A stretch of DNA of 64,000 nt, taken from the IMG/VR virus record IMGVR_UViG_644736364_000008. One strand, 5' to 3'. The notes beneath the pieces are model-generated. The model made no database searches. It was not told where the DNA came from and saw only the letters and a program-made list of their open reading frames with translations. How positions within the stretch are numbered: the first letter of the stretch is position 1; every line of letters starts with the position of its first letter. Below, one piece after another: positions 3,563-36,557 of this stretch. The DNA comes from a virus. Taxonomy: Duplodnaviria; Heunggongvirae; Uroviricota; Caudoviricetes. The position numbers were made by a program, and so were the translations under genes.

Positions 3563-6500
3563 GCGTCGTATCCCCCCTGATCGCTGTAGTTACTCCTGGC
3601 TTTTGCCTTCAGCCTGCGTTCACGTTCATCAAGCTGGCGTGCCACCTCCCGCGCAATATCCTGCGCACTTTGTCCTGGCTGCGTCTGAATGATGATCTGC
3701 GTCGGTGCCTCAATCCGTTGAACGAGTGGCACAGTGGCTGCGCGACTCACAATTGCTTCTCCACCTTTCGCGGGAAGTGCCAAGGGGTGCAACGGTGGAA
3801 GCTCTGCTGGCGCGGCAGCAACGCCCATCATTCCGGCAACAACGGCAGCCAGTGCAGCTGTATTTCTCCGGCTGGTCACATTTGCCGGGCCGTTAACAAT
3901 TTCCGGCCCGTTTTCACCGACGATGCCAAACTGCCCGCGCGGGATATACCCGCCGCTGTCATACATCCCCGCAAAGCCATATCCCCATGATGGAAAACCA
4001 CCCGATGGCATCATCACTTTACCGTCTGCATTCACCGTCGCAGGTTGCTGACGCGTCACGCTTTCCGGCAGTTTTGCCTTTGCGGCCTCTTTACTGACAA
4101 TGCCGAGCTTCTCCAGCAACCAGGAAACGCCGGATTTCAGGGAGTCCAGCGGATGCATGACCATATTCAGCCCTTCCGCCAGTGCCTCCCCGAATCGCCG
4201 CCCCATTGCCGCTGCGCTCTGCAGTTCGGCAGAGGTCGACTTAACGGGCGTCAGTAGATCAGTAAACCAGCCCCACAGCGCCTGCACTTTGTCGCCAATC
4301 CACTGGAACACGGGCTTAAGCGGTTCGAACGCTGCACTGATGGGACCTGCCGCCGCTTTGAATCCTTCCACCACGCCACCGAGAAATGCGGTGATAGGTT
4401 GCCAGTATTTCCAGACAACCAGCGCCACGCCCGCCAGTGCAGTAACCACAAGACCTATCGGACTGAGCAGAGCACCTAACAGACCAGATATGGCATACAG
4501 GGCAACGCGCAGCATCGCCAGTGGACCAGATGCCAGTACTCGCAGCACCGTGCCTGCGGCGGCCAGTCCACCGCGCAGTACCGCCAGAGGATTCATAAAC
4601 ATCACAGCAACAGCACGTAAACCGGATAATCCAGACCGCAAAAGTGCAACCGGCGCACCTGCTACAGTTTTCAGGACATTTCCCGTCAGTGATGCCGTGC
4701 GGCGCAAAGACGACAACGGCGCAGTAAGTAAACCTGCGGCGTTGCCCGATGAAGCAAGCCCGCGTCGCAGCAGTGCCAGTGGTGCGCCAGCCAGCCAGGA
4801 CAACGCGCTGCTGGTTCGAGTTACTGCTGCCGTAACGGAAGATAACGTTTTGATACCCAACACAGAGAATCCCAGACGGATCACTGCCAGCGGCCCCAGC
4901 ACTGCAGCCAGCGCCACCGCTAAGGTGCCGAGGCCGACGGTAACCGCAGCCACAACAGCCGATGCTTTCATCAGTGTGCCTGTCAGTTCCGGGTTAGCTT
5001 CCACCCAGCGACGCAACGCCCCCGTGACGCTTTTCACCGTGTACAGAATATCCATCAGCGGCTGGCGCAGCGTTTCGCCCAGGCTGCTGAAGGTGTTCTG
5101 CGCTCCGGTTTTGACCAGCAACCACTGCGCAGAAAGTGAATCCTTGTTAATGTCGGATTCTTTCTGCATGGAGCCAAGCGCATCATTGCCCGCTGTCAGT
5201 TTTAACTGACGCTGCAGTTCCGGCAGGTTGTTTGCCAGTTTCGCCGCGTCATCGCCAAACTCTTTACCAAACAACATAGTCATGGCAGACAGGCGCTTGT
5301 CCTGCGGCAGCGCGTTTACCTTCTCCAGCACGCGCTGGATGGTTCCCATCGCATCCTTCGTCATCTGCTTTTCAATCACTTCAGGATTGAGTTTCAGCAG
5401 ATTCATCCCTTCAAAGAAACTCTTGCTTTGCATGGTGGCAATGGACAATTCACGCACCATCGCGTTTGCTGCACTGGCTGCAACCTCTGGCGCAGCGCCC
5501 AGTGTCAGGAAGGTGGAACCCAGCGCCGCCGCTTTACGATAATCCAGACGGTCAGCCACACCGCCCAGACGTTGCATCACATCAATGATGTCTGCCCCTT
5601 TCGACATGGCGTTATCATCCAGATAGTTCAGCGCATCACCGAGCTGTTCAATATTGCGGGTGGGGATTTTGTAGAGCTGGGCGATTTTCCCCAGACTTTC
5701 TGACAGTTCATCCGCTGGCAGCTCAAAGGCTGTTGCCGCCTTTGCTGCCGTACTGGCGAAGGCCAGCAGGTCACGTTTCTGATCTTCCCAGCTGTCGTCA
5801 GGGTTTGCGACGTTCATGCGCGCACCACCTTCAACCAGTGCAGCGAAGTCCACCGCACCGTTTTCCATCGGCAACTGTTCGCTGGCAGCCTTGATGGCAT
5901 CCTGCATTTCATAAAAACGTGCAGTGCGGTTGCCATTATCGTCACGCAGACCACTGACCTGCTTTGCCACACCTTTCATGGCATCTTCCATGCTGGTATA
6001 GCTTTTTACTGCCGCCATCACTGGCGCACCCATTGCCAGCCCTGCAGCCGTGGTGGTGGCTCCGGCACCTGCAATACGATCACGCACCTCCAGCGAACGG
6101 GCATAACTGGCACGCGCTGCATTCATCCTGCGCTGAGCTTCCCCCAGTCGCTTCAGCCGCGCCTCCTGTTTCGAAAGTTCCTGGTTATAACGTGATGTTT
6201 CACGGGCTAAACGGGCAGTTGCTCCCGCATCGTCTTTCGCAGAAATTCCCGCCCGGTACAGTTCAGCACGCACAAGCGCCGTCTGCCGCTGCAGCTTTTT
6301 CTGGCGTTCTTCCAGGCGCTGAACAGCCAGCCGTTGACGGCCCAGAGCAACAACCTGACGTTGCGAAGGCGGCCCCATCGCTCCCAGTTCCTGACTGAGC
6401 AAATTTGCACGCTGGCGGGCATAGTTCAGCCTGTCGCCTAATTTCTGATTTTCTGCCTGCAGCTTTCGGAAGCTGTCCAGACTGCTCCCGGCCTGATCAA

Positions 6501-11781: not shown

Positions 11782-12682
11782 CCGTTCCTCCGTTGGTTAC
11801 GCTCCACTGCGTACATGATGCGGCCTGTGTTTTGTTCAGGACCACATCAGCCAGCGGTGAAGCCAGCTCCACACGTTGAACCCCCTCAACATGCAGCGCG
11901 GCAAAAATGGCACTACGGCGAATATCCCGACCAAGCCGCGTCTGACTGGCGATGTACTTCTGCAGGCTGGCTTTTGCCGCTGCCATTACCGGCTCTGCTT
12001 CGGGCCCCGGATAGAGAAAAATGGTGGCTTCCACGCGGTACGGGATGATTTCTGCGCTGCGAACCGTAAGACGGTCAGCCACCGGGCGGACGTTCTCACT
12101 GTTCAGGGCTTTCTCCACCACATCCAGCAGGTCTTTTTCTGCTGTTCCGTCGCCTTCGCGGCTAAGGACAGTCAGCACCACCTCTGCAGGTGCCGGGCTG
12201 GTTGCACTGGCATCCGCCACCCGACCGTCGGCGCTTCGGGCATGAAATTCATAAGCTGCAGTTGGCCCCGCAACTGAAAGCCCTTCAAAGGCTGCAGGCA
12301 CACGCAGGCGTAACGCTTCATCACTTTCCATCACTGCCGCAACGGGCGGCACAGCGTCATTATCAGCAGGCGTCACCGTCAGGCGTTTCACGTTGTAATT
12401 GGCAGCGAGCTGGTCCAGATCGCTCCCTATGGCATAAGCCGCCATCACCGCCTGCGCGGCTTCGTTAATGCGCTGGCGCAGAAGCAACTCACGATAAGCG
12501 TTCTCCTGCAACAATTTGGTGACGGGTTCAGATTCCAGTTCCAGCGTGCGGATCACTGCTTCCTGCTCATCTTTCGGATGAAGCGCCACAAATTCTGCCT
12601 TGCGTTCGGCAAGCAGCGTCTCAAAGTCCGGCACATCCACAATCTGCGGTGCAGGCAACTGCGAAAGGTCAATCACTGCCAT
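11774..12682 (-). CDS. Baseplate protein J (P2 gpJ-like)
   Basis: ORF 11774-12721; start placed at internal Met (MAVIDLSQLPAPQIV), which matches the P2 gpJ N-terminus. Confidence 0.8.
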   Translation of the reverse strand: MAVIDLSQLPAPQIVDVPDFETLLAERKAEFVALHPKDEQEAVIRTLELESEPVTKLLQENAYRELLLRQRINEAAQAVMAAYAIGSDLDQLAANYNVKRLTVTPADNDAVPPVAAVMESDEALRLRVPAAFEGLSVAGPTAAYEFHARSADGRVADASATSPAPAEVVLTVLSREGDGTAEKDLLDVVEKALNSENVRPVADRLTVRSAEIIPYRVEATIFLYPGPEAEPVMAAAKASLQKYIASQTRLGRDIRRSAIFAALHVEGVQRVELASPLADVVLNKTQAASCTQWSVTNGGTDE

Positions 12683-13028
12683 TCTCTGCTCCTGTTGATA
12701 CGGAAAGGGACACAGGTACACCGTTATTCCGCCGCCCGGTCAGCTCCACCATCATTGAACCGTCAAAATTGCTGTTGATGGTGATGGAATCCAGCATCAG
12801 CCGTGGCTCCCAGCGACTCAGCGCCACATACACTGCCGACATGACCTGCAGGCGTAATGCCGGATTTTGTGGCTGATCTATCAGTGCCGACAGCAGGGAA
12901 CCATATTCCCGGCGAGCAATGCGGCTACCCTGCGGTGTCAGCAGAATGTCCCGCACCGACTGGCGCAGATGGTCAATATCAGTAATGGCTTTACCGCTGG
13001 TATTGTTCATCCCGCTATAAAGCGTCAT
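12669..13028 (-). CDS. Baseplate wedge protein W (gp25-like)
   Basis: 119-aa ORF between V and J. Confidence 0.75.
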   Translation of the reverse strand: MTLYSGMNNTSGKAITDIDHLRQSVRDILLTPQGSRIARREYGSLLSALIDQPQNPALRLQVMSAVYVALSRWEPRLMLDSITINSNFDGSMMVELTGRRNNGVPVSLSVSTGAENGSD

Positions 13029-13603
13029 ACCGGGCCTCCGGTTGTATCGCCGCCTTTCAGGACGCCAGTATGCTGATGCGCATCAACCACGATCCCGTTA
13101 GAACTCATCGCACCGCCGCCCTGGGTAACGCCGCCATTGATCACTACTTCACTATTAATACGCGTGCGGTCAGCCTCCAGCACAAACTCACTGGTTTTCA
13201 GGGTGATATTGTCGGCAGCCTCAATAACCATGGATTTGATGCCCCTGACATACCAGCGCCCGGTGGCGGGTTCGTATTCAAACCAGCCACCGTCAGGATG
13301 TTCTGTCACGCAGGCGTCCGCCGACGTCGACGGTGGTGCGAACTGATTCGAATAGACAGCGGGCAGCGCAAAGGCGGTCTCCAGATTGCCGCCCAGACTC
13401 AGCAGCACCACCTGCTCACCTTCCGATGGTCGCCACCATGTCCGGGCATTCCCGGCACGCAGGGTCAGCCAGCTGATCCAGTTGGTTTCTAAGTCGCCTG
13501 TTTTCACCCGACAAAGCCAGTTTTCCCGGTCCACTTCGGTGACTACCCCAGTGCGGATCAGGTTGGTGATAAGGCGCATGATTTCGGTTAGTTGTGTGTT
13601 CAT
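13025..13603 (-). CDS. Baseplate spike/assembly protein V
   Basis: 192-aa ORF, first gene of the V-W-J-I-H-G operon. Confidence 0.8.
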   Translation of the reverse strand: MNTQLTEIMRLITNLIRTGVVTEVDRENWLCRVKTGDLETNWISWLTLRAGNARTWWRPSEGEQVVLLSLGGNLETAFALPAVYSNQFAPPSTSADACVTEHPDGGWFEYEPATGRWYVRGIKSMVIEAADNITLKTSEFVLEADRTRINSEVVINGGVTQGGGAMSSNGIVVDAHQHTGVLKGGDTTGGPV

Positions 13604-13741
13604 GAAAATAGACTGCTATATCTCAAAATTGAGAAGTAGCTTTGATAGTTGTATCACGGCTGTCACAAACAACTGGCAAAAAACGACTACTATCTATAAA
13701 TTATTGAGAGTTATCTCATTAACAAAAAAGAAGCTTGGTAA

Positions 13742-15442
13742 ATGGAACACTTAAGACAACTGCAAAATAAAACTTCCCTGTTAGAAAAGTACGGGACTAG
13801 TAACGCACATCTTTTATGGTCATTAGGTCTTTACTTAGATGAATCCGATTTTGATAAGCTAGCATCTGATGGACTTACTGATGGTGGAAACGATAAGAAA
13901 ATAGACTTCATTACCGTAATTAATTCAACGTTATTTATTGCTCAGGGTTACTACTGCAATCAGCAAGCACTTAAAATAGTTGCGCCTGCAAATAAAGCTT
14001 CTGACTTAAACACTGCTTTAGCGTGGATTATGGCAGGCTCAGGAGAGTCTCCAAATGCAAAATTAAGAGCAAAAATTTCTGAGGTTAGAAAATTAATTGA
14101 TGATAACGAAATTGAAGCTGTTGAATTATTATATATCCATAATTGTGCCGAATCTGAGCAGGTTAAAACTGAGCTTGAAACTTGTCGTGACTATCTAGCA
14201 GGTAGATTTGCAGACAAAGAAATTGAGGTAACTTACAGAGAACTTGGTGTTAATAGTCTTGAAAAATTGTATATTGCGCTATCACAACAAATTGTTGTGA
14301 CTGACAATATAAAGTTCAATGGCGAACTTATAAATTCTGTACAAGGTGATGGCTGGACTTCACATGTTGGCTTTGCAAACGGCACTTGGCTAAATTATTT
14401 ATACAAAAATTATGGAGCAGAATTATTTTCTGCTAATTATAGGGGGTTCATGGGATTAAATAAGAGAAGAAAAATAAACTCATCAATTAAGAATACCGCA
14501 GAAACATCCCCAAAAGACTTCTTTGTCTTTAACAATGGTGTATCAATCCTAACAACAAAATTCAACAAAGAAAAAGGGTTGTTGGAAGGAGTTTCAATCA
14601 TAAATGGAGCTCAAACCACTGGTTCTATTGGTTCAGTTCAAGATATACAAAAATTAGATGGCCTAAAAGTCCTTTGTAAGGTTATTGAATGTAATGATGC
14701 GGACAAAGTAAAAAAAATAGTCCAGTATAATAATACTCAGAATCATATTACAACCTGGGATCACTACTCTAACAGCACAGAACAAAAACAGGTGGCAGAA
14801 GAATTTTCCACTCTTGGTTATACATATTCACTGAAACGCGGCTTCGAAAATACTGGTTCTTTATTTGGCATTGAGTCTGTTGCTCAACCGCTGATAGCGT
14901 TACATGGGGATTATGTTAGCGCCAATAGAGGTAAAAACTACGTTTTCGATACAAAATCAGCCTATGACAATGCCTTTCATGATTCGAAAGCCCAGCATAT
15001 TTTATGTGCTTACACTATTTCAAAAGCTATAGAAAAAGTAAAATCTCAAATCCGTGCAAAAGAGAATAAAATTAAAGTAGATGAGGATAACTTATTATTC
15101 CTCCAAAATTTAAAGTCTCGATTCTTTTTAATATCCGTCATCGGAGAAATACTTGAAGAATTAACAGATAAACCTTTGAACAAGAAGAAAATAAAATATA
15201 AATATGATACAGCATTATCTAAAAATAACTCTCTGGATGATTTAATCGACCTTTGGACACCAGTTATAACTGCGATATTACCACATGTTATCCGTGTTTC
15301 AGGTCAAGATTTAACCACCTACTTATCTGTAACAGACAACCCGTTATCTATCGTATCAAAGGAAGTTAAAAACATATTAACATCCTTAAAAGCGTTCCAA
15401 CCGATTGAGCCATTAATTACTCTTTCAAATCACCTTGAATAA
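13742..15442 (+). CDS. Cargo protein, 566 aa, candidate abortive-infection (AIPR-like) protein
   Basis: Low-GC ORF on the opposite strand between V and S; contains FFVFNNGVSILTT...INGAQTTGSIG, reminiscent of an NGxQT core; own AT-rich upstream region. Confidence 0.6.
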   Translation: MEHLRQLQNKTSLLEKYGTSNAHLLWSLGLYLDESDFDKLASDGLTDGGNDKKIDFITVINSTLFIAQGYYCNQQALKIVAPANKASDLNTALAWIMAGSGESPNAKLRAKISEVRKLIDDNEIEAVELLYIHNCAESEQVKTELETCRDYLAGRFADKEIEVTYRELGVNSLEKLYIALSQQIVVTDNIKFNGELINSVQGDGWTSHVGFANGTWLNYLYKNYGAELFSANYRGFMGLNKRRKINSSIKNTAETSPKDFFVFNNGVSILTTKFNKEKGLLEGVSIINGAQTTGSIGSVQDIQKLDGLKVLCKVIECNDADKVKKIVQYNNTQNHITTWDHYSNSTEQKQVAEEFSTLGYTYSLKRGFENTGSLFGIESVAQPLIALHGDYVSANRGKNYVFDTKSAYDNAFHDSKAQHILCAYTISKAIEKVKSQIRAKENKIKVDEDNLLFLQNLKSRFFLISVIGEILEELTDKPLNKKKIKYKYDTALSKNNSLDDLIDLWTPVITAILPHVIRVSGQDLTTYLSVTDNPLSIVSKEVKNILTSLKAFQPIEPLITLSNHLE

Positions 15443-15447
15443 ATAAC

Positions 15448-15474
15448 GGGTGGCCTCCTAGGCCACCCGTTCAT
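15448..15474. terminator. Bidirectional hairpin terminator between the 566-aa cargo gene and S
   Basis: AACGGGTGGCC-TCCTA-GGCCACCCGTT perfect 11-bp stem between convergent stops. Confidence 0.5.
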
Positions 15475-15497: not shown

Positions 15498-15956
15498 TTA
15501 CGGCTTATTGTTATTAATTAACCATTGATAAAAAACATTCTTAACGTTGTTCTCAATATCATTGTTAATACCCAACAAACGCCGCTCTGCATACCGTACG
15601 TCCGGTCCTTTGCGACTGACGCGATCACGCAGACCGTAATGGTGAACACGGGCAATGCGCTGTACCTTACCTTCAAACTGCACGCTGGCAGAGTCGGCGC
15701 TGGCGGCAGTTTTCAGGTATTTTGTGGTGCGCAGCTTTGCAAACATCTGACGTTTGATACGGCCTTTTTTACTGCGTGCTGTTACCCGTCGCGGTTCATA
15801 GCTGCTGCCGTCAGGGTTGCGCTGCATCCTGATATTCTGCTGCTGTGTCCGGCGAAGTTCCTGCGCCAGCTGGCGCATCATGCGGCTTCTCGAGGCTGGT
15901 TCCAGATTCGCCAGCAAGGCACTCAGCCAGTCGTCCACCTTCTGCAGTTCAGCCAC
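15498..15956 (-). CDS. Tail completion protein S (P2 gpS-like)
   Basis: 152-aa ORF overlapping R; P2 R-S order. Confidence 0.75.
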   Translation of the reverse strand: MAELQKVDDWLSALLANLEPASRSRMMRQLAQELRRTQQQNIRMQRNPDGSSYEPRRVTARSKKGRIKRQMFAKLRTTKYLKTAASADSASVQFEGKVQRIARVHHYGLRDRVSRKGPDVRYAERRLLGINNDIENNVKNVFYQWLINNNKP

Positions 15957-16401
15957 ATTTCACCGTCCACATTTCTTCAGGTGCATCAGGTTCCGCTATA
16001 GCTTCAACGCTCGACACACTGCCGTCAGTGCTGACCAGCACACGTTCCGTCAGTTGCAGGTTCAGGCTGATATCACAGACATCGTTGCGCAGAATATCCA
16101 CCTCAAAGGTGAATAGCTTTTCCCGTAACGCCGGGTTATTGATGGCATCGGGCTGGTTATCCCTCAGCCACAGCAAAACCGGGGCCATCAGCAGATTCTG
16201 GTCGCCGCTGAAATCCTCAATCACCGCGTTCAGTGTGTAACGGTACTCCCACGACATGGAGCTGGCCCCCGTGGCAACCAGCGAACCGTTATCCACAAAC
16301 AGATGCAGTTTGTCCGGGTTATTGCGGACATAAGGCACCGCTTTATTGAGGGCGTGGCGCAGGGATTGTGGTTTGTTCACTGTTTCGCTCCTGACACGCA
16401 A
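15949..16401 (-). CDS. Tail completion protein R (P2 gpR-like)
   Basis: 150-aa ORF downstream of the lysis cassette. Confidence 0.75.
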   Translation of the reverse strand: MRVRSETVNKPQSLRHALNKAVPYVRNNPDKLHLFVDNGSLVATGASSMSWEYRYTLNAVIEDFSGDQNLLMAPVLLWLRDNQPDAINNPALREKLFTFEVDILRNDVCDISLNLQLTERVLVSTDGSVSSVEAIAEPDAPEEMWTVKCG

Positions 16402-21459: not shown

Positions 21460-23226
21460 ATGAACACCACACTGACACCCGCAGATCTCGATCCCCGTCG
21501 GCAGGCCATGCTGCTGTACTTTCAGGGATACCGCGTAGCCCGCATTGCTGAAATGCTGGGCGAGAAAGTTGCAACCGTTCACAGCTGGAAAAAACGCGAC
21601 AAGTGGGGTGACTATGGGCCGCTGGATCAGATGCAGCTCACCACCGCCGCACGCTACTGCCAGCTCATTATGAAGGAGCACAAAGAAGGGAAAGATTTCA
21701 AAGAGATTGACCTGCTGGCGCGCCAGTCGGAGCGCCATGCGCGGATCGGCAAGTTTAACAATGGCGGCAACGAAGCCGACTTAAACCCTAACGTCGCCAA
21801 CCGCAACAAAGGCCCGCGCCGTCAGCCGGAAAAGAACGTTTTCACCGATGAACAGATTGAGAAGCTGGAAGAAATCTTCCATTCCTCCATGTTCAACTAC
21901 CAGCGCCACTGGTGGGAAGCCGGAAAAACCAACCGCATCCGCAACCTGCTGAAGTCACGCCAGATCGGCGCGACCTTCTATTTTGCCCGTGAAGCCCTGA
22001 TTGACGCCCTGCTAACCGGGCGTAACCAGATTTTCCTTTCCGCCAGCAAGGCTCAGGCCCACGTCTTTAAGCAGTACATCATCGACTTCGCCAAAGAAGT
22101 GGAGGTGGAGCTGAAAGGCGATCCGATGGTGCTTCCTAACGGGGCCACGCTGTACTTCCTCGGCACCAATGCCCGCACGGCCCAGAGTTACCACGGCAAC
22201 CTGTATCTGGATGAATATTTCTGGATACCGAAATTCCAGGAGCTGCGCAAAGTGGCTTCCGGTATGGCTATTCACAAAAAATGGCGACAAACCTATTTTT
22301 CCACGCCATCCAGCCTGACACACAGTGCTTATCCGTTCTGGTCCGGTGCGCTGTTCAACCGAGGGCGCAACAAAGCCGATAAGGTGGACATCGACCTGTC
22401 CCACAGCAATCTGGCCCCCGGCCTGCTGTGCGCAGACGGGCAGTACCGCCAGATAGTCACTGTGGAAGATGCGGTGCGCGGCGGCTGTAACCTGTTCGAC
22501 CTCGACCAGTTGCGCATGGAGTACAGCCCGGACGAATACCAGAACCTGCTGATGTGTGAGTTCGTGGACGATCTCGCGTCTGTGTTCCCACTCAGCGAGC
22601 TGCAGGCGTGCATGGTGGACAGTTGGGAAGTCTGGACCGACTTTCATGCACTGGCCCTGCGCCCGTTTGGCTGGCGCGAAGTGTGGATCGGATATGACCC
22701 GGCGAAAGGTACGCAGAACGGCGACAGCGCCGGATGCGTGGTGGTGGCGCCGCCAGCCGTGCCGGGCGGTAAGTTCCGCATTCTTGAGCGTCACCAGTGG
22801 CGCGGAATGGACTTCCGCGCCCAGGCTGACGCCATCAAAAAACTGACCGAACAGTACAACGTGACCTATATCGGTATCGACTCAACCGGCGTTGGTCACG
22901 GGGTTTACGAGAACGTGAAAGCGTTTTTTCCTGCCGTCCGGGAGTTTGTCTACAACCCCAACGTTAAAAACGCCCTGGTACTCAAGGCCTACGACATTAT
23001 CAGCCACCGCCGTCTGGAGTTTGACGCCGGACACACCGACATAGCGCAGTCCTTTATGGCAATCCGCCGCGCCACCACCGCCAGTGGCAACCGCCCGACC
23101 TATGAAGCCAGCCGCAGCGAAGAAGCCAGCCACGCCGATCTGGCCTGGGCAACGATGCACGCACTGTTTAACGAACCGCTGCAGGGCGAATCCGCCAATA
23201 CCAGCAATATTGTGGAGATTTTTTGA
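21460..23226 (+). CDS. Terminase large (ATPase) subunit (P2 gpP-like)
   Basis: 588-aa ORF divergent from O, upstream of portal. Confidence 0.9.
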   Translation: MNTTLTPADLDPRRQAMLLYFQGYRVARIAEMLGEKVATVHSWKKRDKWGDYGPLDQMQLTTAARYCQLIMKEHKEGKDFKEIDLLARQSERHARIGKFNNGGNEADLNPNVANRNKGPRRQPEKNVFTDEQIEKLEEIFHSSMFNYQRHWWEAGKTNRIRNLLKSRQIGATFYFAREALIDALLTGRNQIFLSASKAQAHVFKQYIIDFAKEVEVELKGDPMVLPNGATLYFLGTNARTAQSYHGNLYLDEYFWIPKFQELRKVASGMAIHKKWRQTYFSTPSSLTHSAYPFWSGALFNRGRNKADKVDIDLSHSNLAPGLLCADGQYRQIVTVEDAVRGGCNLFDLDQLRMEYSPDEYQNLLMCEFVDDLASVFPLSELQACMVDSWEVWTDFHALALRPFGWREVWIGYDPAKGTQNGDSAGCVVVAPPAVPGGKFRILERHQWRGMDFRAQADAIKKLTEQYNVTYIGIDSTGVGHGVYENVKAFFPAVREFVYNPNVKNALVLKAYDIISHRRLEFDAGHTDIAQSFMAIRRATTASGNRPTYEASRSEEASHADLAWATMHALFNEPLQGESANTSNIVEIF

Positions 23227-24260
23227 TGGGAAAGAGTAAGAAGAACCGCGCTGCGGCGACGAAACAGATCCAGCTTAAAAGTCAAACTACAGCCGAAGCA
23301 TTCAGCTTCGGCGATCCCGTTCCTGTTCTGGACCGCCGAGAACTGCTGGATTATGTGGAATGCGTACAGATGGACCGCTGGTATGAGCCGCCCGTCAGCT
23401 TTGACGGACTGGCGCGCACCTTCCGCGCTGCCGTTCATCATAGTTCCCCGATTGCAGTAAAGTGCAACATTCTGACCAGCACCTACATCCCTCACCCGCT
23501 GCTCAGCCAGCAGGCTTTTTCGCGTTTTGTGCAGGACTATCTGGTATTTGGTAACGCCTACCTGGAGAAACGCACGAACCGCTTCGGTGAAGTTATCGCC
23601 CTTGAACCTGCCTTGGCAAAATACACCCGACGCGGGTTAGACCTGGATACCTACTGGTTTGTGCAATACGGTATGACCACGCAGCCATATCAGTTCACGA
23701 AAGGCAGCATCTTTCATCTGATGGAACCGGACATCAACCAGGAGATCTACGGCCTGCCCGGTTATCTTTCTGCTATTCCATCCGCCCTGCTCAACGAGTC
23801 TGCCACGCTGTTCCGCCGCAAGTATTACATTAACGGCAGTCATGCAGGCTTCATCATGTATATGACCGACGCCGCGCAGAACCAGGAAGATGTGAACAAC
23901 CTCCGCAACGCGATGAAAAGCGCCAAAGGCCCTGGCAACTTCCGCAACCTGTTTATGTACTCGCCTAACGGCAAAAAGGACGGGCTTCAGATCATCCCGT
24001 TGTCAGAAGTCGCAGCGAAAGATGAATTTCTGAACATCAAGAACGTGAGCCGGGACGACATGATGGCTGCACACCGCGTACCGCCTCAGATGATGGGAAT
24101 TTTGCCGAATAATGTTGGGGGGTTTGGGGATGTGGAGAAGGCAAGTCGGGTATTTGTTCGTAATGAATTAATACCTTTGCAAAAACGTTTCGAAGAATTA
24201 AATTTATGGCTAAAAAATAATATTATTACATTCAAAGAATATCAACTATCCCTAGACTAA
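23223..24260 (+). CDS. Portal protein (P2 gpQ-like)
   Basis: 345-aa ORF overlapping P stop by 4 bp, adjacent to the cos region. Confidence 0.9.
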   Translation: MMGKSKKNRAAATKQIQLKSQTTAEAFSFGDPVPVLDRRELLDYVECVQMDRWYEPPVSFDGLARTFRAAVHHSSPIAVKCNILTSTYIPHPLLSQQAFSRFVQDYLVFGNAYLEKRTNRFGEVIALEPALAKYTRRGLDLDTYWFVQYGMTTQPYQFTKGSIFHLMEPDINQEIYGLPGYLSAIPSALLNESATLFRRKYYINGSHAGFIMYMTDAAQNQEDVNNLRNAMKSAKGPGNFRNLFMYSPNGKKDGLQIIPLSEVAAKDEFLNIKNVSRDDMMAAHRVPPQMMGILPNNVGGFGDVEKASRVFVRNELIPLQKRFEELNLWLKNNIITFKEYQLSLD

Positions 24261-24307: not shown

Positions 24308-25717
24308 TTACTCATCTACTCTGATTTTTTGTTTTTTATTATTTTGAGTTAAGACATTTATGGTAATAGATGTATACGGATGAAAGTCAGGCACTATACT
24401 TTTAACCTCTCCATTTTCAAGAAAATGATGTGCTATTGAAGGAAATAAATCAGGATCTACAGGATATTTAGCATTAGGATTATGATACATATTTAAACCT
24501 TCTGCCCATGTTTCTGTAATATCGCCTTCTTTCACTTCAAAACTAAATGCTGCTGGATATAATGCCTCTGGGTCATGATCATGGCAGTAACCACTCCTAA
24601 ATAATCTAAGGTCACTTCTTCCAAAACCAGCCAGTTTTCCCATCCGATTAAACTTCGATATAGTACCACTATTAGAACTAAGGACGGCCGAAATATTTTC
24701 AGACTCATCCAAGAAGAAAAAGCCTGAAGGAATTTCCTTTTTCTCAAATTGATGCGATATAATTTTCTTAGTTGCTAAACTGTAACATCCATCTTCAGAT
24801 TTAACATGCTCATAGCGAATACCATAAAGATACTGCCAAAGTGCACTATGGGACCAAATCATAGAGTTTGGTTCATGAAAATCAGCAATTGCGAAAATTA
24901 AAGGATTCCCCTTAACATGTTCTAGATCCCAGTATCGAGTTTTCTTTTTCAGTTTAGAATAGAGAGAACTTCCAAATTTAATCGGCATATAATTCTCTAT
25001 TTTCTCTAGCAATTCTTCCTTACTTTTAGGTTCAGATAGCATTTCAGATGATTGATTAATATCATTCCCTGTTGGATTAACCGTTACAGCTTCAATGCAA
25101 ATAGTATTACCATACTTACGTGCCACATAATCAGGGGCATTAAACTGCCTATCTAGCCAAAAGTGTTCCTCTCGTAAATATGCGAAAAGATATAACTCCC
25201 ATAGCCGGGCATCAAAACCTGTTGTCTGAAACTGCTCTATAAAATTCCCGTCGACATCCTCAAAATGATTCATCATTTCCTTGATTATCCCTGTTGCAGG
25301 CGACCAGTTCGCATATTTACCAAATAATGAAAAATGATGATGAAGTTTATCTGGTGTAACTATAGGTGTGAATAAATCCATTGCTTTATAAGTTTCATCA
25401 CCTTGTGGAAATACTTTTACGTTTAATTTAGTATGCTTCCGCATTAATTTCTTTAGTTTTGCTCGTGCAGAATTCATTTCTGAAACACTAGTAAATAGGT
25501 CAATACATCTATATCTCCCACTTAAGTCTCTTGCTAAAACAATACCGCTATAATCTTCATCGATTTGATCCAATAATAGTGCCCCTAGCAGGAACTCTCT
25601 CGGACTACAGTACCACTCAAACTCATAGCCTAAAAGTTCAGTATTTGGCATTCTGGTCCAATCAACAAAAGCATTAAACCTCTCTTTACTCATTTTTTTT
25701 ATATCAAGAAAAGACAT
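24308..25717 (-). CDS. Hypothetical cargo protein, 469 aa (no recognisable motif)
   Basis: Low-GC ORF between portal gene Q and cos; no P-loop or nuclease motif detectable by eye. Confidence 0.6.
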   Translation of the reverse strand: MSFLDIKKMSKERFNAFVDWTRMPNTELLGYEFEWYCSPREFLLGALLLDQIDEDYSGIVLARDLSGRYRCIDLFTSVSEMNSARAKLKKLMRKHTKLNVKVFPQGDETYKAMDLFTPIVTPDKLHHHFSLFGKYANWSPATGIIKEMMNHFEDVDGNFIEQFQTTGFDARLWELYLFAYLREEHFWLDRQFNAPDYVARKYGNTICIEAVTVNPTGNDINQSSEMLSEPKSKEELLEKIENYMPIKFGSSLYSKLKKKTRYWDLEHVKGNPLIFAIADFHEPNSMIWSHSALWQYLYGIRYEHVKSEDGCYSLATKKIISHQFEKKEIPSGFFFLDESENISAVLSSNSGTISKFNRMGKLAGFGRSDLRLFRSGYCHDHDPEALYPAAFSFEVKEGDITETWAEGLNMYHNPNAKYPVDPDLFPSIAHHFLENGEVKSIVPDFHPYTSITINVLTQNNKKQKIRVDE

Positions 25718-26624: not shown

Positions 26625-26981
26625 TTAATACAGGTTCCGCCACTGATCATCTTCCTGCAAACGCTGGTTCCGATAGAAGATACGCAGGCCTGCTCCTGAC
26701 GGAATACTGCCTCCGCGAAGGAGTAAATCGACCTCTTTCTCGCTGCCATCAAATCCTCTGGACTTCAGCTCATACACGAGCTGCAGTCGCTGATGGTCTG
26801 TAATTCGCTGTTTGTAGTCTTTACGCCGTTTCGGTTTCACCAGGCGTAACCTTGCTGCCAGTTCCCGGCGCTCTTTTTTGCTCATACTGTGCAGGTAATC
26901 GTGCAACTCCTTGTCATCCATGCTGGTAATGTCCGTTCTGGGGTCCCCATCAGCTGATTTATCTTTCTCCTGTTGGTTCAA
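26625..26981 (-). CDS. 118-aa ORF, possibly the displaced C-terminal part of replication protein A
   Basis: Begins at a TTG right at the A stop; becomes in-frame with A if one copy of the 26-bp tandem repeat is removed. Confidence 0.45.
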
Positions 26982-29065
26982 ATTTTCAGCAAGGGGACAG
27001 TTATTGCCACGAGTCCAAGGGGACAGTTATTGCCACGAGTCCAAGGGGCGCAAGCGCCCTGGTCGGCTGCCGCCTCCTGAATGTCAACGGCCTTACGAAC
27101 CATTTTCCACTTCACCGCATGAGTGCAGATCTTGCCCTCTGCAATGGGTGACCAGATGCCATAAATACGAATACCGTGATCGCCATAGGCGGTCGGCTCT
27201 TCGTTGATTTCATAAGCGGTTCTGATGAGGTGATATTTGCGGGGAACCAGTACGCCGCCCTGCTTCATGATGTAGGTGGCAAAACAACCAGCATCAGCAG
27301 CGGCTAGGATGGCATCAAGGCGCGGGTTATCCAGTACCGGCGCACCTGCTTTTTTGTCCCCCTGTTGCCTTGCCGCCTGACCAGCCAGCAATCGCAGTTC
27401 ACGGTAAGCCTGACGCCCCGGAATGCCAAAGAAGCGGAATTGCTGAACACGATGCAGAGACGCCCAGGCATTAACGTATTCAGCGTTATCACGCAGGGAT
27501 TTACCCGTTTCCTTGCTGATCTCGCCAGCCAGACCACGCCCGTCAATGTTCTTACTGATGTATTTCGCGATGTAGCTTGTTGGCGTACCTTTGCGCGGGT
27601 TTATCAGCTCAGACTTAAAGCGTGGTTCCGTGTTATTACCCAGCTCCTCGCGGTCTTCACGAATGGCAAACTTACGCAACAAAGCAGTAATGGCGCGGCG
27701 ATCTTTTTTGCGCATAAAACACAACAGGTGCCAGTGAACTGTACCGTCATGATGCGGCTCAGCCACCCGCACGCCATACCAGCGTAATCCGGCTTTGTGC
27801 ATCGCCTTACGAAATGCAGCAAACATACCGACCAGATAATCACTGCTTTGTCTTACCGTCGCATTTGTCCAGGTCGGGTTGGGCCTGCCGTTATTTAGCG
27901 TGGAATGGAAACGTGACGGACAGGTGATGGTGTAGAAAACGGCGCAGTCACCGCGCATTTCCGCGATAAGCTCCAGACCTTTAACACAGGCCATCATCTC
28001 ATTGCGGCGATGCGCAGGGTTGCTGCTGCTGGCGTTTACCACGTCTTCCATATCCAGCGTGTCGCCGTCTTCGTTCACCAGTTCATGAGAACGGAAAAAC
28101 TCCAGCGACTTACGGCGCTGCTCACGTTTATGCATCACGGCTTCATAGCTGACATAGGGAGATGCTTTTTTGCTGACCAGGCAAACAGCACGCAACTGCT
28201 CTTCCCGCCATTCGCAACGCATCTTCCATAATTTCCGATACCACCAGTCGGCGCATAACATACGCGCCAGCGAACCCGGAATGAGTTCATAAGGCACGGG
28301 TTTACGGCGGTTTCTTTTCCGACGGAGTTGCTCAAACGCAGGCGGGATAACATCCAGACGCAGGGTTTCCGCTGCCACCTTTTCCCATGTTTTGCGGATT
28401 TCTTCTGGCTTAATGTCATCGGTGGCATACAAATCACCACAAGCTGCATCAAGGCACATGCTCATATGCGCGGCGACAAGGGTAGACAGGCGCTTCACCT
28501 GATCCTGACTCATTTCAGGCAGGATCAGCAGGCCGTCCAGCCCTTCATGGCTTGCCATAAAGCGAAAAGAAGTGGATAGCTGACAGTCGCGTACATGCTC
28601 CAGTCGTTCCAGACATGGCTTAATCGTCTCACGCAAATAGCGGGAATAAGCCTTTGGCCTGCCCAGGCTGCTGAAGTATTCAATACGTTGCATCAGCGGC
28701 TTGCTGATATGGGAAGGCTGGGCGTTAACGTCCGCCAGAATGACCATGTCTGGATTAAAACGCTGCTGCTCATGCGCCAGCTTTGCCCGGCTAATGAGCT
28801 TATCCTGCTCCATTTCGCGTTGGACAGGATCACGGGATTCATTAAAGAAATAACGCTCCCAGGCCTGATCACTCAGTGCCTCGCGGCGCAGCTGTTCCTG
28901 CTCGTTATCGGCAGCGTACAGAGTGATCAGGTTTGAAAGCGCAGAAACCGGCGCGACTTCCGCCGGGTCCAGATAAGGGTTAATGGCCTTTTTCGGGCTG
29001 TTCCATGAGAACGCTGCGGCAGCCTCGTTAAAGCCGCAGCAGTTGTTCATATCGGCATGACTCAT
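26978..29065 (-). CDS. Replication initiation endonuclease A (rolling-circle, P2 gpA-like)
   Basis: 695-aa ORF containing the YIAKYISK active-site tyrosine pair. Confidence 0.85.
26991..27048. repeat. Perfect 26-bp tandem duplication (2.2 copies) at the 3' end of gene A
   Basis: AAGGGGACAGTTATTGCCACGAGTCC repeated head-to-tail, then AAGGGG. Confidence 0.85.
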
Positions 29066-29919
29066 GCACGTACTCCGTACACGGCTGAACTATCCACGCC
29101 ACGCGAATAATCAAATCCCACCCAGCAGCGTGTCCCGGAAACAGCGATGATTTCTGTTGCAGATTTACTCTCACCAGCTGCTACGCCGATGCTGCGTTTT
29201 GCCTTGATGTAGTGGTGAGTAAAATTGCGATACAGCGAACGGATCAGGGATGTGTCACTGTTAGAAACAATGACCGGATGTCCTTCTGATGACCGATGTT
29301 CAAGAAGGGATGCCAGGTGATACTGGTCATCTTCAGTGAAGCCGTCAGTGTGATAGTCGGAAAACGTACCGTCATAAGGCGGATCGCAATACACCACATC
29401 CCCCGCCTTCAACATCGCCAGCGTTTCATCAAAGCTGGCGCATATAAACGTTGCCCGCTGGGCTTTCTCTGCAAATGCGCGAATTTCTTTTTCAGGGAAA
29501 TACGGATTTTTATAATTACCGTACGGAATGTTGAAATGCCCGCTCTTGTTATAGCGACATAACCCACGGTAACCATGACGATTGAGATACAGGAAATATA
29601 CCGCTTTCATGAAATCAGTAATTTCAATGGAGTAATTAAACTCCTGCCTTATGTTGTAATAAGCCACATCCCTGTTTGCTTCCTCAAATAAAGCTCTGGC
29701 ACGAGATATAAACGCCTCGCAATCAGCAGCAACCTTTTTATAGAGGTTGATTAAATCAGGATTAATATCCGCAACAAGATAGCTGGGGTAATCCGTCTCC
29801 ATCATCACAGCACAGGAACCCGCGAAAGGTTCAACCAGTCGCGAGCCAGCAGGAAGATGTTTTTTCAGTTCGGACATAATGGCGGTTTTATTTCCCGCCC
29901 ATTTCAGGATGGTGCTCAT
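29062..29919 (-). CDS. DNA adenine methyltransferase (Dam-like, orphan)
   Basis: [11 protein letters not shown]...FAGSCAV (AdoMet motif) ... DPPY (motif IV); ATGA overlap with the upstream gene and 4-bp overlap with A. Confidence 0.85.
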
Positions 29920-30143
29920 ACAACACCTCCGTTGTAATGTTTGCCTTTCAGCTCTGCGATTTCCTGACAGGTAATGCAAAGCTGCACTCCAGGAATGGCG
30001 CGGCGTCGTGCTGGCGGAATTGGCGCTTCACATTCAATACAAAGCACACGAGACACGCCCGGTGTTTTGGCACGGGCAGCACGGATATAGCGCTGGCGTT
30101 CTTCTTCAACGCGCTGCTGTACGAGATCCATTGCATCTGCCAT
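29916..30143 (-). CDS. TraR/DksA-family C4 zinc-finger protein
   Basis: CIECEAPIPPARRRAIPGVQLCITCQ. Confidence 0.6.
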   Translation of the reverse strand: MADAMDLVQQRVEEERQRYIRAARAKTPGVSRVLCIECEAPIPPARRRAIPGVQLCITCQEIAELKGKHYNGGVV

Positions 30144-30382
30144 TAGTGGATCTCCTGCGCTTCGTTCTGGATTGCTTCAGCAGTCACACGCAGCAGTTCT
30201 GCCGCTTCGACGTGGTTTAGCTGGCGGGATGTGATATGACACGCCAGGCTATCAAGGCGAGCTGCCATTGCTTCAGCCCTTGCCCGGCGTTCTTCCAGAC
30301 GAGCCTCTGTCAGTAAAATATTAAGCCCTGCATCATCCGGTCCGGTTTTAGTCGTGAGGGTTTCAATATTACGCATAATCAA
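30143..30382 (-). CDS. Hypothetical early protein
   Basis: 79-aa ORF in the early operon. Confidence 0.45.
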   Translation of the reverse strand: MIMRNIETLTTKTGPDDAGLNILLTEARLEERRARAEAMAARLDSLACHITSRQLNHVEAAELLRVTAEAIQNEAQEIH

Positions 30383-30443
30383 TTCTCCTGAATTTAGATA
30401 AAGGGATGCCCGGCGGGTTTACGCCATTAATTTCATTAGTTGC

Positions 30444-30785
30444 TTAATTCGGCATGGTTAGCCGTCTGGGAAATAAGCTCACCACTGCACGAAAATGATT
30501 CATTGCTTTAATCAACTCCCGCTTTTCGTCAGTGGTCAGCTCATTAATGCTGATGCTATGACGTTCAGCTGGAATTTTTGCCATAAAGAATATGGCAGCC
30601 AGTGCTCGTTTATTTTGTTCGTTATTGATATCCCGTGGATCACGCATATCTTTAATAAACCGCTCAAGCTCTGACTCAATATTCAGGCCAAATACTTTCG
30701 CCCTTAACTCCGCAATGTGATTAAGTCCATTCAGGCGTTCACCGGGGCTTAATGGAACAGTCGCCGCAGCGCCATTAATTGCCAT
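30444..30785 (-). CDS. Hypothetical early protein
   Basis: 113-aa ORF in the early operon downstream of cII. Confidence 0.5.
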   Translation of the reverse strand: MAINGAAATVPLSPGERLNGLNHIAELRAKVFGLNIESELERFIKDMRDPRDINNEQNKRALAAIFFMAKIPAERHSISINELTTDEKRELIKAMNHFRAVVSLFPRRLTMPN

Positions 30786-30807
30786 AATTCATATCCCCAA
30801 AACGCAA

Positions 30808-31032
30808 CTATCGTTCTTTGTTCTTACGGTAACGTTCAAGAGGAGATACATTTTTTCGTATCGTCTCTTTAACCTGCTCTCCCCGTAAAAACGTCCCATC
30901 CCTTAGCGTGAAAAAGTAACTGCCATCGCCCGACAACGACGGATAACAACAGAGCAAATCATCTTCAGGTACTGAATAACTCTCCCCTCTGTAACGAAAC
31001 TGATAAACCACTTCACTTTCCGCTGCATACAT
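30808..31032 (-). CDS. Hypothetical early protein
   Basis: 74-aa ORF; an overlapping alternative-frame ORF (30903-31229) makes the exact gene model uncertain. Confidence 0.4.
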   Translation of the reverse strand: MYAAESEVVYQFRYRGESYSVPEDDLLCCYPSLSGDGSYFFTLRDGTFLRGEQVKETIRKNVSPLERYRKNKER

Positions 31033-31206
31033 TTTGACTTTCTCCGTTTCCTCGTGGTCAATTCAGACAGCAATTCATCTTGTGAATGACATGGATGCCA
31101 GCGTTTACCATCCTCACCCATGATCCAGCCGTGACCGTAGTGCATTGCCGGGCTTTGTTTTACCAGCAGCGATGCAAATGATGGTTCTTTCGTCAGCATA
31201 AGCACC

Positions 31207-31716
31207 TCACAGCAAACCGAATGAAGCACCGAGGCCAGTCACGGTATCAACTGCACTCACCATCGCAGGATTAGCCTGTAAACGGGCCTGCAATGAAACA
31301 GCCGCCAGCGCCATCAGTCGTGTTACAGAGTTAATGCTGCTGATAGCATCACGACGACCGGCACTAGTTTTTACATCACCAGATACCGCACCTGCTGCAA
31401 CACGCCCGATCTCTGCAGTTGCGCTCATGACGTAATGCGGCAGTTTCTCTTTTGCCACCTCATTAATCGGTACACATGGCAGACAATGAATCTGTGCCAG
31501 AAAACCATCTACCAGCGTTGAATCTTCAGTCAGATCGGTAAGCAGCCAGATTTCTGGTGCGGTTAATAAATGAGGCTGAGCTGGGTTCAGCTTGTTCCGC
31601 AGAATCTGCACATTCATGCCTGCACGTTCTGCCAGTTGCACCAGGTTGTGACGCAGTGCAAAAGCCCTACAGGCTTCATCGAAATGCGGATGTTTGGAAA
31701 TCTTGTAATCAAACAT
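31207..31716 (-). CDS. cII: Phage regulatory protein CII (186 type)
   Basis: 169 aa, the length I recall for 186 CII; position right after apl. Confidence 0.7.
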
Positions 31717-31748
31717 GGTGCCCCCTTAGAAAGTTCCCATAATTGAAC

Positions 31749-31991
31749 TTACTTACCAACAATGACGCGGAAGTTGGAATGACCGAGGGATTCACGGACC
31801 TGATCAGTTTTGTACATCAGATAACGAAGGCTTACGCGGCCTTTATTTTTTTCTTTCTTGACCATGTACTTAGCAAGTTGACCATGGTGAATTTTTTGGT
31901 AAACAGAGCCACGGGAAATGCCCTCCCACTCTGCGAACTCTGCAGGCGTAGCCATCTCTTTTGGTACACGAATTGAAATATCAGTACTCAT
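31749..31991 (-). CDS. apl: Apl/Cox-like excisionase and switch regulator
   Basis: 80-aa HTH protein, first gene of the lytic operon divergent from cI. Confidence 0.65.
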   Translation of the reverse strand: MSTDISIRVPKEMATPAEFAEWEGISRGSVYQKIHHGQLAKYMVKKEKNKGRVSLRYLMYKTDQVRESLGHSNFRVIVGK

Positions 31992-32745: not shown

Positions 32746-32747
32746 AC

Positions 32748-33767: not shown

Positions 33768-33771
33768 GCAC

Positions 33772-36524: not shown

Positions 36525-36557
36525 CACGCTTAAGTGTCACCTTACAGGATTAGGTTT

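What the first reader, a model, noticed from the sequence alone, without database searches (positions are those of the whole stretch)
13742..15442. 566-aa Abi-like cargo gene inserted between baseplate gene V and tail-completion gene S
A low-GC ORF on the opposite strand interrupts the otherwise contiguous late operon between S and V (the position of nonessential orf30 in P2). It has its own AT-rich promoter region and a perfect 11-bp hairpin terminator shared with S. The segment FFVFNNGVSILTT...INGAQTTGSIG is reminiscent of the NGxQT core I associate with AIPR-type abortive-infection proteins (and distantly of the DGQQR motif of ParB/DUF262 NTPases); this is recollection, not a search result.
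Basis: partly seen in the sequence, partly recalled or inferred. Interest (0 to 1): 0.6.

Follow-up and report, generated by a model that had tools for sequence, protein, structure and literature searches.

The report
AIPR/AbiU defence gene in P2-like prophage

Summary
The 566-aa ORF at 13742-15442 (+) is real. It lies in a low-GC block (about 0.33, against 0.56 in the flanks) between gpV and gpS. Pfam assigns it to AIPR (90.9 bits, cutoff 25), PADLOC to AbiU (1.7e-24) and PHROG 1841 matches end to end. RefSeq already annotates the identical protein as "AIPR family protein". Phages with 95-97% identical flanks have a closed S-V junction. About 40% of a sample of related E. coli prophages, and 48 of 73 loci from other species, carry other low-GC cargo in the slot (Septu, SIR2, TIR, PARIS, GmrSD, a Pycsar-type cyclase, many unknowns). 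The slot is the P2 orf30 position, which is a boundary between the O and V late operons. The terminator hairpin and the P_V activator dyad are both kept. A structure model gives an N-terminal FokI/Mrr/MspJI-like nuclease fold, then the AIPR core, then a helical C-terminus. The suggested ParB/DUF262 link has weak fold support and no profile support. Mechanism (inferred): a lysogen-expressed, single-protein sensor-nuclease that blocks other phages. Known kind, low novelty.

The parts
13025..13603 (-). gpV baseplate spike gene, the first gene of the V late operon and the left anchor of the slot
   Evidence: Pfam Phage_base_V 5e-18 plus Apex; 98% aa identity to phage 500465-1 gpV
13650..13667 (-). 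TGT-N12-ACA dyad (TGTGACAGCCGTGATACA on the - strand), centred 55.5 nt upstream of the V start; inferred to be the Ogr/Delta-type activator site of the P_V late promoter, kept on the V side of the insert
   Evidence: Conserved with closed-junction phages and with L090. P2's annotated 'activator binding site; activation of pV promoter' has the same spacing to the V start, which the record also annotates as the transcription start site. Its function here is inferred.
13673..13700 (+). Candidate promoter for the AIPR gene (CTGGCA-N16-TATAAA), found by eye
   Evidence: Read from the sequence. It was not returned by the consensus scan, which found no + strand promoter. Unverified.
13742..15442 (+). 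AIPR/AbiU-family gene, 566 aa, antisense to the late genes
   Evidence: identical protein WP_000400690.1 is annotated 'AIPR family protein'
13742..14416 (+). N-terminal domain (aa 1 to about 225) with a PD-(D/E)xK-type nuclease fold; invariant D47, D51, D55, Q68, K85, D88, N90, H133, N134, E137
14426..15235 (+). AIPR domain (aa 229-498), with invariant N232-Y233-R234-G235, N264-N265-G266, N288-T293, N330/Q333/N334 and W339-D340
   Evidence: Pfam envelope; invariant columns
15445..15471 (.). Perfect 12-bp GC-rich hairpin between the convergent AIPR and S stop codons; inferred bidirectional terminator that also ends the O operon
   Evidence: P2 annotates a terminator for the O operon at the equivalent place. 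Diverged AIPR alleles carry different hairpins at the same place.
15498..15956 (-). gpS tail-completion gene, the right anchor of the slot. Its last ~17 codons (about 15498-15550) are AT-rich and diverge from closed-junction relatives, so the exchange breakpoint lies inside the 3' end of S
   Evidence: Pfam Phage_tail_S 7.6e-41, aa 3-146; boundary alignment and S C-termini

Best explanation
This is a stand-alone anti-phage defence gene of the AIPR/AbiU family. It is carried as exchangeable cargo (a 'moron') in the S-V (P2 orf30) slot of a P2-like prophage of E. coli. The slot is the boundary between two late operons. The cassette sits between the terminator that ends the O operon and the activator site of the V-operon promoter, so it does not disturb virion gene expression. 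Because the gene is antisense to the late genes, it can be expressed from its own promoter in the lysogen (inferred). The protein has three parts: an N-terminal restriction-endonuclease-like (FokI/Mrr/MspJI-type) fold, the conserved AIPR core, and a helical C-terminal region. The proposed mechanism is inferred, not shown. The AIPR core and/or the C-terminal region sense a superinfecting phage or its nucleic acid. They then activate the N-terminal nuclease, which attacks nucleic acid. That curtails phage gene expression, as reported for lactococcal AbiU (delayed phage transcription), and so aborts or restricts the infection, protecting the lysogen population and with it the prophage. The confidence of 0.8 applies to the identity claim (AIPR/AbiU-family defence cargo in a hotspot). 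For the specific sensor-nuclease mechanism I would give about 0.35.
For: Family: Pfam AIPR 90.9 bits against a cutoff of 25; PADLOC AbiU 1.7e-24 over aa 115-511; PHROG 1841 4.3e-146 over the full length, category moron; PGAP 'AIPR family protein'. More than 1,000 homologues, mostly full-length (~570 aa), occur in many phyla, all with PF10592.

Cargo status: flanks are 95-97% identical in phages and E. coli prophages that have a closed junction of about 70 bp. GC is 0.33 against 0.56. Only 8 of 1,054 E. coli genomes with this V-S lineage carry an AIPR gene there.

Defence hotspot: the same slot holds Septu, SIR2/ThsA-like, a Pycsar-type cyclase, AAA+TIR, FRG and DUF2971 in other species. In E. 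coli it holds TIR, PARIS-like AAA+DUF4435, GmrSD, SIR2, FRG and DUF6216.

Slot anatomy is identical to P2 (S, terminator, antisense orf30, P_V activator site, V).

Stand-alone gene: there is no conserved neighbour in Pantoea, Aeromonas, Salmonella or a metagenomic P2-like contig.

Against: No experiment shows that this protein, or any enterobacterial AIPR protein, protects against phage. Rousset et al. list AIPR among the domains found in P4-hotspot cargo, but it is not among the systems described as validated in the section I read. Lactococcal AbiU gives only a modest 10- to 100-fold effect. At the usual (D/E)xK position the nuclease domain has an invariant Q68 followed by nearly invariant G69 and Y70, so the canonical lysine is missing; catalysis is therefore uncertain. 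No promoter was found by the scan. The trigger, the substrate (DNA or RNA), and whether the outcome is abortive (cell death) or direct restriction are all unknown.
Confidence: 0.8

Rival explanations
1. The protein is a direct-immunity restriction enzyme and not an abortive-infection protein. On this view it is a nucleotide-regulated, possibly modification-dependent (type IV-like) nuclease, in which a ParB/sulfiredoxin-like AIPR core acts as an NTP-binding switch for the N-terminal Mrr/MspJI-like nuclease. That would be a domain-swapped functional analogue of GmrSD, BrxU or SspE.
Confidence: 0.2
2. The gene is a non-defensive or selfish moron. For example, it could be an addiction-type toxin or a DNA-binding protein with a degenerate, inactive nuclease fold, kept for reasons unrelated to phage exclusion.
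For: The canonical catalytic lysine is absent from the nuclease motif. There are no experimental data for this clade. P2 orf30 in the same slot has no known function and no PADLOC match. Many cargo proteins in this slot have no defence annotation.
Against: Polar and charged residues are strictly invariant in both domains across sequences only 41-45% identical and drawn from many phyla, which argues for a maintained active site. The gene matches a family founded on an experimentally shown Abi protein. The slot and the rest of the prophage carry recognised defence genes, including PD-T7-1 at 24308-25717.
Confidence: 0.1
3. The gene is a component of virion assembly or the late programme, that is, a real part of the tail gene cluster.
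For: Only its position between the tail genes S and V.
Against: It is absent from 95-97% identical phages, including deposited phage genomes (Escherichia phage 500465-1, Klebsiella phage 4LV2017), and from most related E. coli prophages. It is on the opposite strand, has foreign GC content, and homologues occur as lone chromosomal genes in Aeromonas.
Confidence: 0.01

Closest known systems
AbiU (AbiUi/AbiU1) of Lactococcus lactis, the founding member of the AbiU1/AIPR family
   Same: It matches the PADLOC AbiU profile (1.7e-24, 376 of 537 profile positions) and contains the Pfam AIPR domain. It is a single protein of similar size. The N-terminal domain of the model superimposes on the FokI nuclease domain, as the FEMS 2026 review reports for AbiUi.
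   Different: The host is Gram-negative, and the carrier is a P2-like prophage and not a lactococcal plasmid. There is no AbiU2-like HEPN partner gene next to it. The phenotype has not been tested.
P2 orf30 / accessory-gene hotspots of P2-like phages (old/tin, Z/fun and 'within the tail genes')
   Same: Same position and anatomy as P2 orf30: S, O-operon terminator, antisense low-GC gene, P_V activator site, V. It shows the same swap-by-recombination behaviour described for P2 and P4 defence hotspots (PMC13586616; PMC9122126).
   Different: The papers I could read characterise the gpA-portal (old/tin), Z/fun and tail-CI hotspots explicitly. The S-V slot is covered only implicitly, as 'downstream of GpL, 16% of systems' and 'within the tail genes'. 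P2 orf30 itself is unrelated to AIPR and has no defence annotation.
MzaE of the MZA anti-phage system (an AIPR-family component)
   Same: It shares the AIPR core: NCBIfam MzaE 1.3e-13 and PADLOC MzaE 5e-9, aa 213-349 only.
   Different: The score of 50 bits is far below the equivalog cutoff of 1050. Only the core aligns. There are no MzaA-D genes nearby, so it is not an MZA system.
GmrSD / DUF262-DUF1524 type IV restriction enzymes (ParB-like NTPase plus nuclease)
   Same: Conceptually similar: a possibly ParB-like domain joined to a nuclease domain in one polypeptide. GmrSD-type cargo uses the same S-V slot.
   Different: The domain order is reversed and the nuclease type differs (PD-(D/E)xK-like, not HNH/DUF1524). 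No profile-level homology was detected.

Membership tests
AIPR (Pfam PF10592) | Whole-protein score above Pfam's gathering threshold | tested here: met
   90.9 bits against a cutoff of 25, E=1.6e-25, aa 229-498 on profile positions 1-289 of 308. All 46 aligned homologues hit PF10592.
AIPR (Pfam PF10592) | Conserved core motifs (NNG ... NGAQT(T)) | tested here: met
   N264, N265, G266 and N288-T293 are invariant in 46 sequences that go down to 41% identity.
AbiU (PADLOC model; L. lactis AbiUi) | Match to the AbiU profile over most of its length | tested here: met
   PDLC02357 E=1.7e-24, protein aa 115-511 on profile positions 138-513 of 537.
AbiU (PADLOC model; L. lactis AbiUi) | Single-gene system with no obligatory partner | tested here: met
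   It is the only ORF in the insert. Homologues have unrelated neighbours in Pantoea, Aeromonas, Salmonella and a metagenome contig.
AbiU (PADLOC model; L. lactis AbiUi) | FokI-like nuclease fold, as reported for the AbiUi model | tested here: met
   [not shown]
AbiU (PADLOC model; L. lactis AbiUi) | Anti-phage phenotype with delayed phage transcription | not testable with these tools
   This needs phage challenge and transcript time-courses.
MZA system (MzaE equivalog, NCBIfam NF041935) | Score above the equivalog cutoff, and MzaA-D neighbours | tested here: not met
   50.3 bits against a cutoff of 1050, core region only. The neighbours are gpV and gpS.
PD-(D/E)xK nuclease superfamily (N-terminal domain) | Restriction-endonuclease-like alpha/beta fold | tested here: met
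   [not shown]
PD-(D/E)xK nuclease superfamily (N-terminal domain) | Canonical D...(D/E/Q)xK catalytic motif | tested here: inconclusive
   Invariant D55 on the first strand and invariant Q68 followed by nearly invariant G69 and Y70 on the second: the Q is kept, as in the Mrr/MspJI-type QxK motif (recalled from memory), but the K is replaced by Y. Invariant K85, D88 and N90 on the next helix could complete the site.
ParB/sulfiredoxin superfamily, including DUF262 (AIPR core) | ParB/Srx-like fold | tested here: inconclusive
   [not shown]
ParB/sulfiredoxin superfamily, including DUF262 (AIPR core) | Detectable sequence or profile homology to DUF262 or ParBc | tested here: not met
   hhalign of A1 against the DUF262 family alignment A4: probability 0.3%, and the aligned region does not involve the motifs. 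0 of 46 members hit PF03235 or PF02195 at E<=1. A profile search of the PDB found nothing.
ParB/sulfiredoxin superfamily, including DUF262 (AIPR core) | Nucleotide (CTP/NTP) binding or hydrolysis | not testable with these tools
   This needs biochemistry.
Prophage moron / defence-hotspot cargo (P2 orf30 slot) | Absent from close relatives, with alternative cargo at the same site | tested here: met
   Closed junction in relatives with 95-97% identical flanks. 25 closed and 48 occupied among 73 loci from other species, with 57 ORF clusters among the occupied loci surveyed. Known defence genes are among the cargo.
Prophage moron / defence-hotspot cargo (P2 orf30 slot) | Foreign base composition and its own transcription signals outside the phage operons | tested here: met
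   GC 0.33 against 0.56. The gene is antisense, and is bounded by the terminator hairpin and the retained P_V dyad. The promoter itself is unverified.

The most novel reading that the evidence does not exclude
AIPR proteins, including this one, may be nucleotide-gated nucleases. On this reading a divergent ParB/sulfiredoxin-like core (NNG...NGAQTT in place of DGQQR/GERRxR) acts as an NTP-dependent clamp or switch that licenses a non-canonical Mrr/MspJI-like nuclease (D...QxY plus a relocated lysine). That would be a domain-inverted analogue of GmrSD/BrxU, and the first mechanistic model for a very widespread but uncharacterised defence family. As a secondary point, the S-V (orf30) slot may be a distinct and largely unmined defence hotspot of P2-like phages, in which most cargo families have no annotation.
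Probability: 0.2. Interest if true: 0.5.

Novelty: already known. Interest (0 to 1): 0.22.

Why it matters
For this locus it matters little. The gene is already named "AIPR family protein" in RefSeq and belongs to PHROG 1841. AbiU-type systems are already reported in P2-like prophages, and accessory-gene hotspots within the P2 tail region are already described. Two modest points remain useful. First, I found no mechanistic or structural study of the AIPR family in the held literature, so the domain model given here yields concrete mutants to test: a FokI/Mrr-like nuclease fold with a non-canonical QxY site, then the AIPR core, then a helical tail. Second, the S-V inter-operon slot behaves as a compact defence hotspot with well-defined anchors (the gpS 3' end plus terminator on one side, the P_V activator site plus gpV on the other). 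It is filled in about 40% of related E. coli prophages and about two-thirds of loci from other species, and most of its cargo is unannotated, so it could be mined for new systems.

Tried and rejected
- **Sequence search of the PDB** with the protein and with the family profile: only chance-level hits.
- **Pfam on the isolated N-terminal (aa 1-225) and C-terminal (aa 416-566) pieces**, and on all 46 family members at E<=1: no family other than AIPR.
- **hhalign of the AIPR family against a DUF262 family** built from a GmrSD-type protein found in the same slot in E. coli C21: no relationship.
- **Promoter scan:** no + strand sigma-70 match upstream of the gene, and overall counts no higher than in shuffles.
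- **MzaE membership:** rejected (50 bits against 1050).
- **Structural-gene hypothesis:** rejected because close relatives have closed junctions.
- **Papers not held:** the original AbiU paper (PMC93294) and the Christie & Calendar P2 review (PMC4836473). Statements on AbiU phenotype therefore come from the FEMS 2026 review. The TGT-N12-ACA consensus and the MspJI/Mrr QxK motif are from my own memory.

Full report
**1. The observation**

It lies in a sharp GC trough, 0.30-0.37 across about 13.6-15.6 kb against 0.55-0.59 on both sides. Pfam identifies the flanking minus-strand genes as gpW (12669-13028), gpV (13025-13603; Phage_base_V + Apex), gpS (15498-15956; Phage_tail_S) and gpR (15949-16401). 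The window is therefore a P2-like prophage.

The window DNA is 100% identical to the chromosome of E. coli MS7163. There PGAP annotates the same tail and lysis genes and calls the ORF "AIPR family protein", WP_000400690.1.

It runs from 15445 to 15471, with a perfect 12-bp stem and a 3-nt loop, -22.6 kcal/mol, z = -5.4, and none of 200 shuffles folds as well. It lies between the convergent stop codons of the ORF and of S.

The promoter claim is weaker. The consensus scan found no sigma-70 match on the + strand upstream of the ORF, and overall counts were no higher than in shuffles. By eye there is a CTGGCA-N16-TATAAA at 13673-13700, which I offer only as a candidate.

**2. What the protein is**

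- Pfam AIPR (PF10592): E=1.6e-25, 90.9 bits against a gathering cutoff of 25, aa 229-498.
- PADLOC AbiU model: 1.7e-24 over aa 115-511.
- PHROG 1841 (category moron, "Abi alpha-like abortive infection mechanism"): 4.3e-146, end to end.
- MzaE models match only the core and fall far below the equivalog cutoff (50 against 1050 bits), so this is not an MZA component.

The large protein database holds more than 1,000 homologues, all with PF10592. Most of those listed are full-length proteins of about 570 aa. The named hosts include Pantoea, Aeromonas, Paraburkholderia, Clostridium, Bacteroidota and cyanobacteria.

The N-terminal region, which Pfam leaves unassigned, has invariant D47, D51, D55, Q68, K85, D88, N90, H133, N134 and E137.

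**3. Structure**

A 2026 review independently reports that an AlphaFold model of lactococcal AbiUi superimposes on FokI, and summarises AbiU as a single-protein system that delays phage transcription and gives modest protection (PMC13064643). Another paper places AbiU-1 in a PD-(D/E)xK tree (PMC13099982).

The nuclease motif here is non-canonical. Invariant D55 lies on the first strand, and invariant Q68 with nearly invariant G69 and Y70 lies on the second, at the position where Mrr/MspJI-type enzymes have QxK (from memory). An invariant K85 on the following helix could substitute for the missing lysine. I could not inspect coordinates, so whether the site is active remains open.

**4. The ParB/DUF262 idea**

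Makarova et al. 2013 state that AbiU1/AIPR/COG1479 contains a ParB-superfamily domain that is often fused to other nucleases (PMC3632139). An earlier paper from the same group instead gives AIPR proteins an N-terminal HEPN domain (PMC3506569). My fold search does not support HEPN for this protein.

I tested the DUF262 link directly. A GmrSD-type protein (DUF262 + AlbA_2) occupies the same prophage slot in E. coli C21. I collected its family, aligned 23 members and compared the two family profiles with hhalign. The result was a probability of 0.3%, with no alignment of the motifs. None of the 46 AIPR proteins hits DUF262 or ParBc in Pfam at E<=1, and a profile search of the PDB found nothing.

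The ParB likeness is therefore a fold-level possibility with literature backing, but it is not demonstrated here.

**5. The slot**

Close relatives lack the gene. Escherichia phage 500465-1, Klebsiella phage 4LV2017 and dozens of Klebsiella prophage records match both flanks at about 95-96% but span only about 2,060 bp, with S and V about 70 bp apart. One record (Kp4865-2) has a different 1.75-kb low-GC insert.

Among complete E. coli genomes, 1,054 of 5,426 carry this V-S lineage. In 60 rows taken at even steps down the ranking, 34 junctions are closed. 23 are occupied (one is the window's own AIPR gene). The other cargo there is annotated as TIR, DUF6216 (including BL21(DE3)), AAA+DUF4435 (PARIS-like), GmrSD, SIR2, FRG, an AAA ATPase or hypothetical protein. 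Only 8 genomes have AIPR there: three are identical to the window, and five carry a diverged allele (about 86% identity over the 3.9-kb query).

I also surveyed 80 loci from other species, found through gpS. Of these, 73 contain both S and V: 25 junctions are closed (77-203 bp) and 48 carry inserts of 0.6-3.9 kb, nearly all at GC 0.32-0.43. The 74 ORFs from the occupied loci fall into 57 clusters, and most are antisense to S and V. Recognisable cargo includes Septu PtuA/PtuB, a SIR2/ThsA-like protein, a Pycsar-type cyclase with an AGS-C domain, AAA+TIR, FRG and DUF2971. Many others have no match.

**6. Why this site tolerates cargo**

The P2 reference record annotates the interval as: S, a "putative rho-independent terminator for O operon", antisense Orf30 (nonessential), an "activator binding site; activation of pV promoter", and then V, whose first base is annotated as the transcription start of the V operon.

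The window keeps both control elements. The hairpin follows S. A TGT-N12-ACA dyad at 13650-13667 is centred 55.5 nt upstream of V, the same spacing as in P2, and it is conserved in closed-junction phages and in a diverged AIPR-bearing phage.

The right-hand breakpoint lies inside the last ~17 codons of S, which are AT-rich and diverged here. This pattern fits cassette exchange by recombination between conserved phage genes, as described for P2 and P4 hotspots (PMC13586616).

**7. History and mobility of the gene**

Orthologues at 84-85% aa identity sit in the same slot and orientation in a metagenomic P2-like contig and in Salmonella prophages. Between the window and that metagenomic contig, the gene (75% nucleotide identity) has diverged about as much as V (78%), R (76%) and S (69%). 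Each allele has its own different GC-rich hairpin. The arrangement is therefore old in some lineages, even though it is patchy among close relatives.

Other homologues are found elsewhere:
- Pantoea (80% identity): beside P2-like genes at a different position.
- Aeromonas (58%): a lone gene between housekeeping genes.
- Klebsiella (80%): next to a KfrA-type gene, which suggests a plasmid.
- Klebsiella Peduoviridae: a distant relative (31%) occupies the classical gpA-portal hotspot.

No partner gene is conserved in any of these contexts, so the gene appears to function alone.

**8. Mechanism**

Shown: family membership, cargo status, slot anatomy and the nuclease-like fold.

Inferred: expression in the lysogen from its own promoter; sensing of a superinfecting phage by the AIPR core and/or the helical C-terminus; nuclease action that curtails phage gene expression, by analogy with AbiU.

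Unknown: whether the outcome is abortive or restrictive, and whether the substrate is DNA or RNA. I found no mechanistic paper on AIPR proteins, and none of the systems described as validated in the section of Rousset et al. that I read is an AIPR protein.

**9. Novelty**

The protein is already annotated, and AbiU-type systems are already reported in P2 and P4 elements. Accessory and defence hotspots within the P2 tail genes are on record, although the papers I could read characterise old/tin, Z/fun and tail-CI explicitly and not the S-V slot.

Noticed in passing
window 24308-25717 (-): A second low-GC island (GC 0.36-0.39) lies between the portal gene gpQ (23223-24260) and gpA (26978-29065). 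It holds a 469-aa ORF that matches PADLOC PD-T7-1 over its full length (E=1.4e-196) and has no Pfam hit. This is the classical cos-adjacent P2 defence hotspot, so the prophage has two defence slots filled.
   Followed up: partly
window 29062-29979 (-): A D12-class N6-adenine DNA methyltransferase (Pfam 1.6e-76) lies directly next to gpA. It appears to be an orphan Dam-like methylase of the prophage. Whether it relates to self-protection against the prophage's own nucleases is unknown.
   Followed up: no
window about 29000-42500: A long stretch of lower GC (0.31-0.48, with a minimum at 34-35 kb) lies beyond gpA. I did not examine it. It may contain the prophage early region or integration end, or further islands.
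   Followed up: no
L024:6457-7920, L048:6449-8197, L017:6466-7812, L053:728-2062, L052:6429-7694, L083:6440-7522, L025:6876-8105, L002:1631-3142: Large low-GC ORFs (340-580 aa) occupy the S-V slot of P2-like prophages in other species and have no significant PADLOC hit. The three checked against Pfam (L002, L024, L048) also have no Pfam hit. Some look membrane-anchored. Given the company they keep, they are candidate uncharacterised defence genes.
   Followed up: partly
E. coli BL21(DE3) NC_012971.2 884182-887027 (hit H70) and a record named DH5alpha, NZ_CP026085.1 3119384-3122425 (H75): Laboratory-strain records carry a related P2-like V-S region with cargo in the same slot: a DUF6216 family protein in BL21(DE3), and a hypothetical protein in the record labelled DH5alpha. 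This could be relevant to phage-sensitivity differences between lab strains.
   Followed up: no
window 15445-15471; L090 about 5699-5751; L092 about 1513-1562: Each diverged AIPR allele carries a different GC-rich hairpin between its stop codon and the S stop codon. The terminator function seems to be conserved while its sequence is replaced.
   Followed up: partly
L084 6001-7701 and L085 6001-7701 (Pantoea); L094 4001-5409 (Klebsiella): The 80%-identical Pantoea homologue lies between the chromosomal gene mug and P2-like genes (Ogr/gpD in one strain, gpA in another), that is, at a prophage edge or a different hotspot. The Klebsiella homologue is next to a KfrA-type gene, which suggests a plasmid. 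The same gene therefore moves between different kinds of mobile element and between slots.
   Followed up: partly
[not shown]
   Followed up: partly
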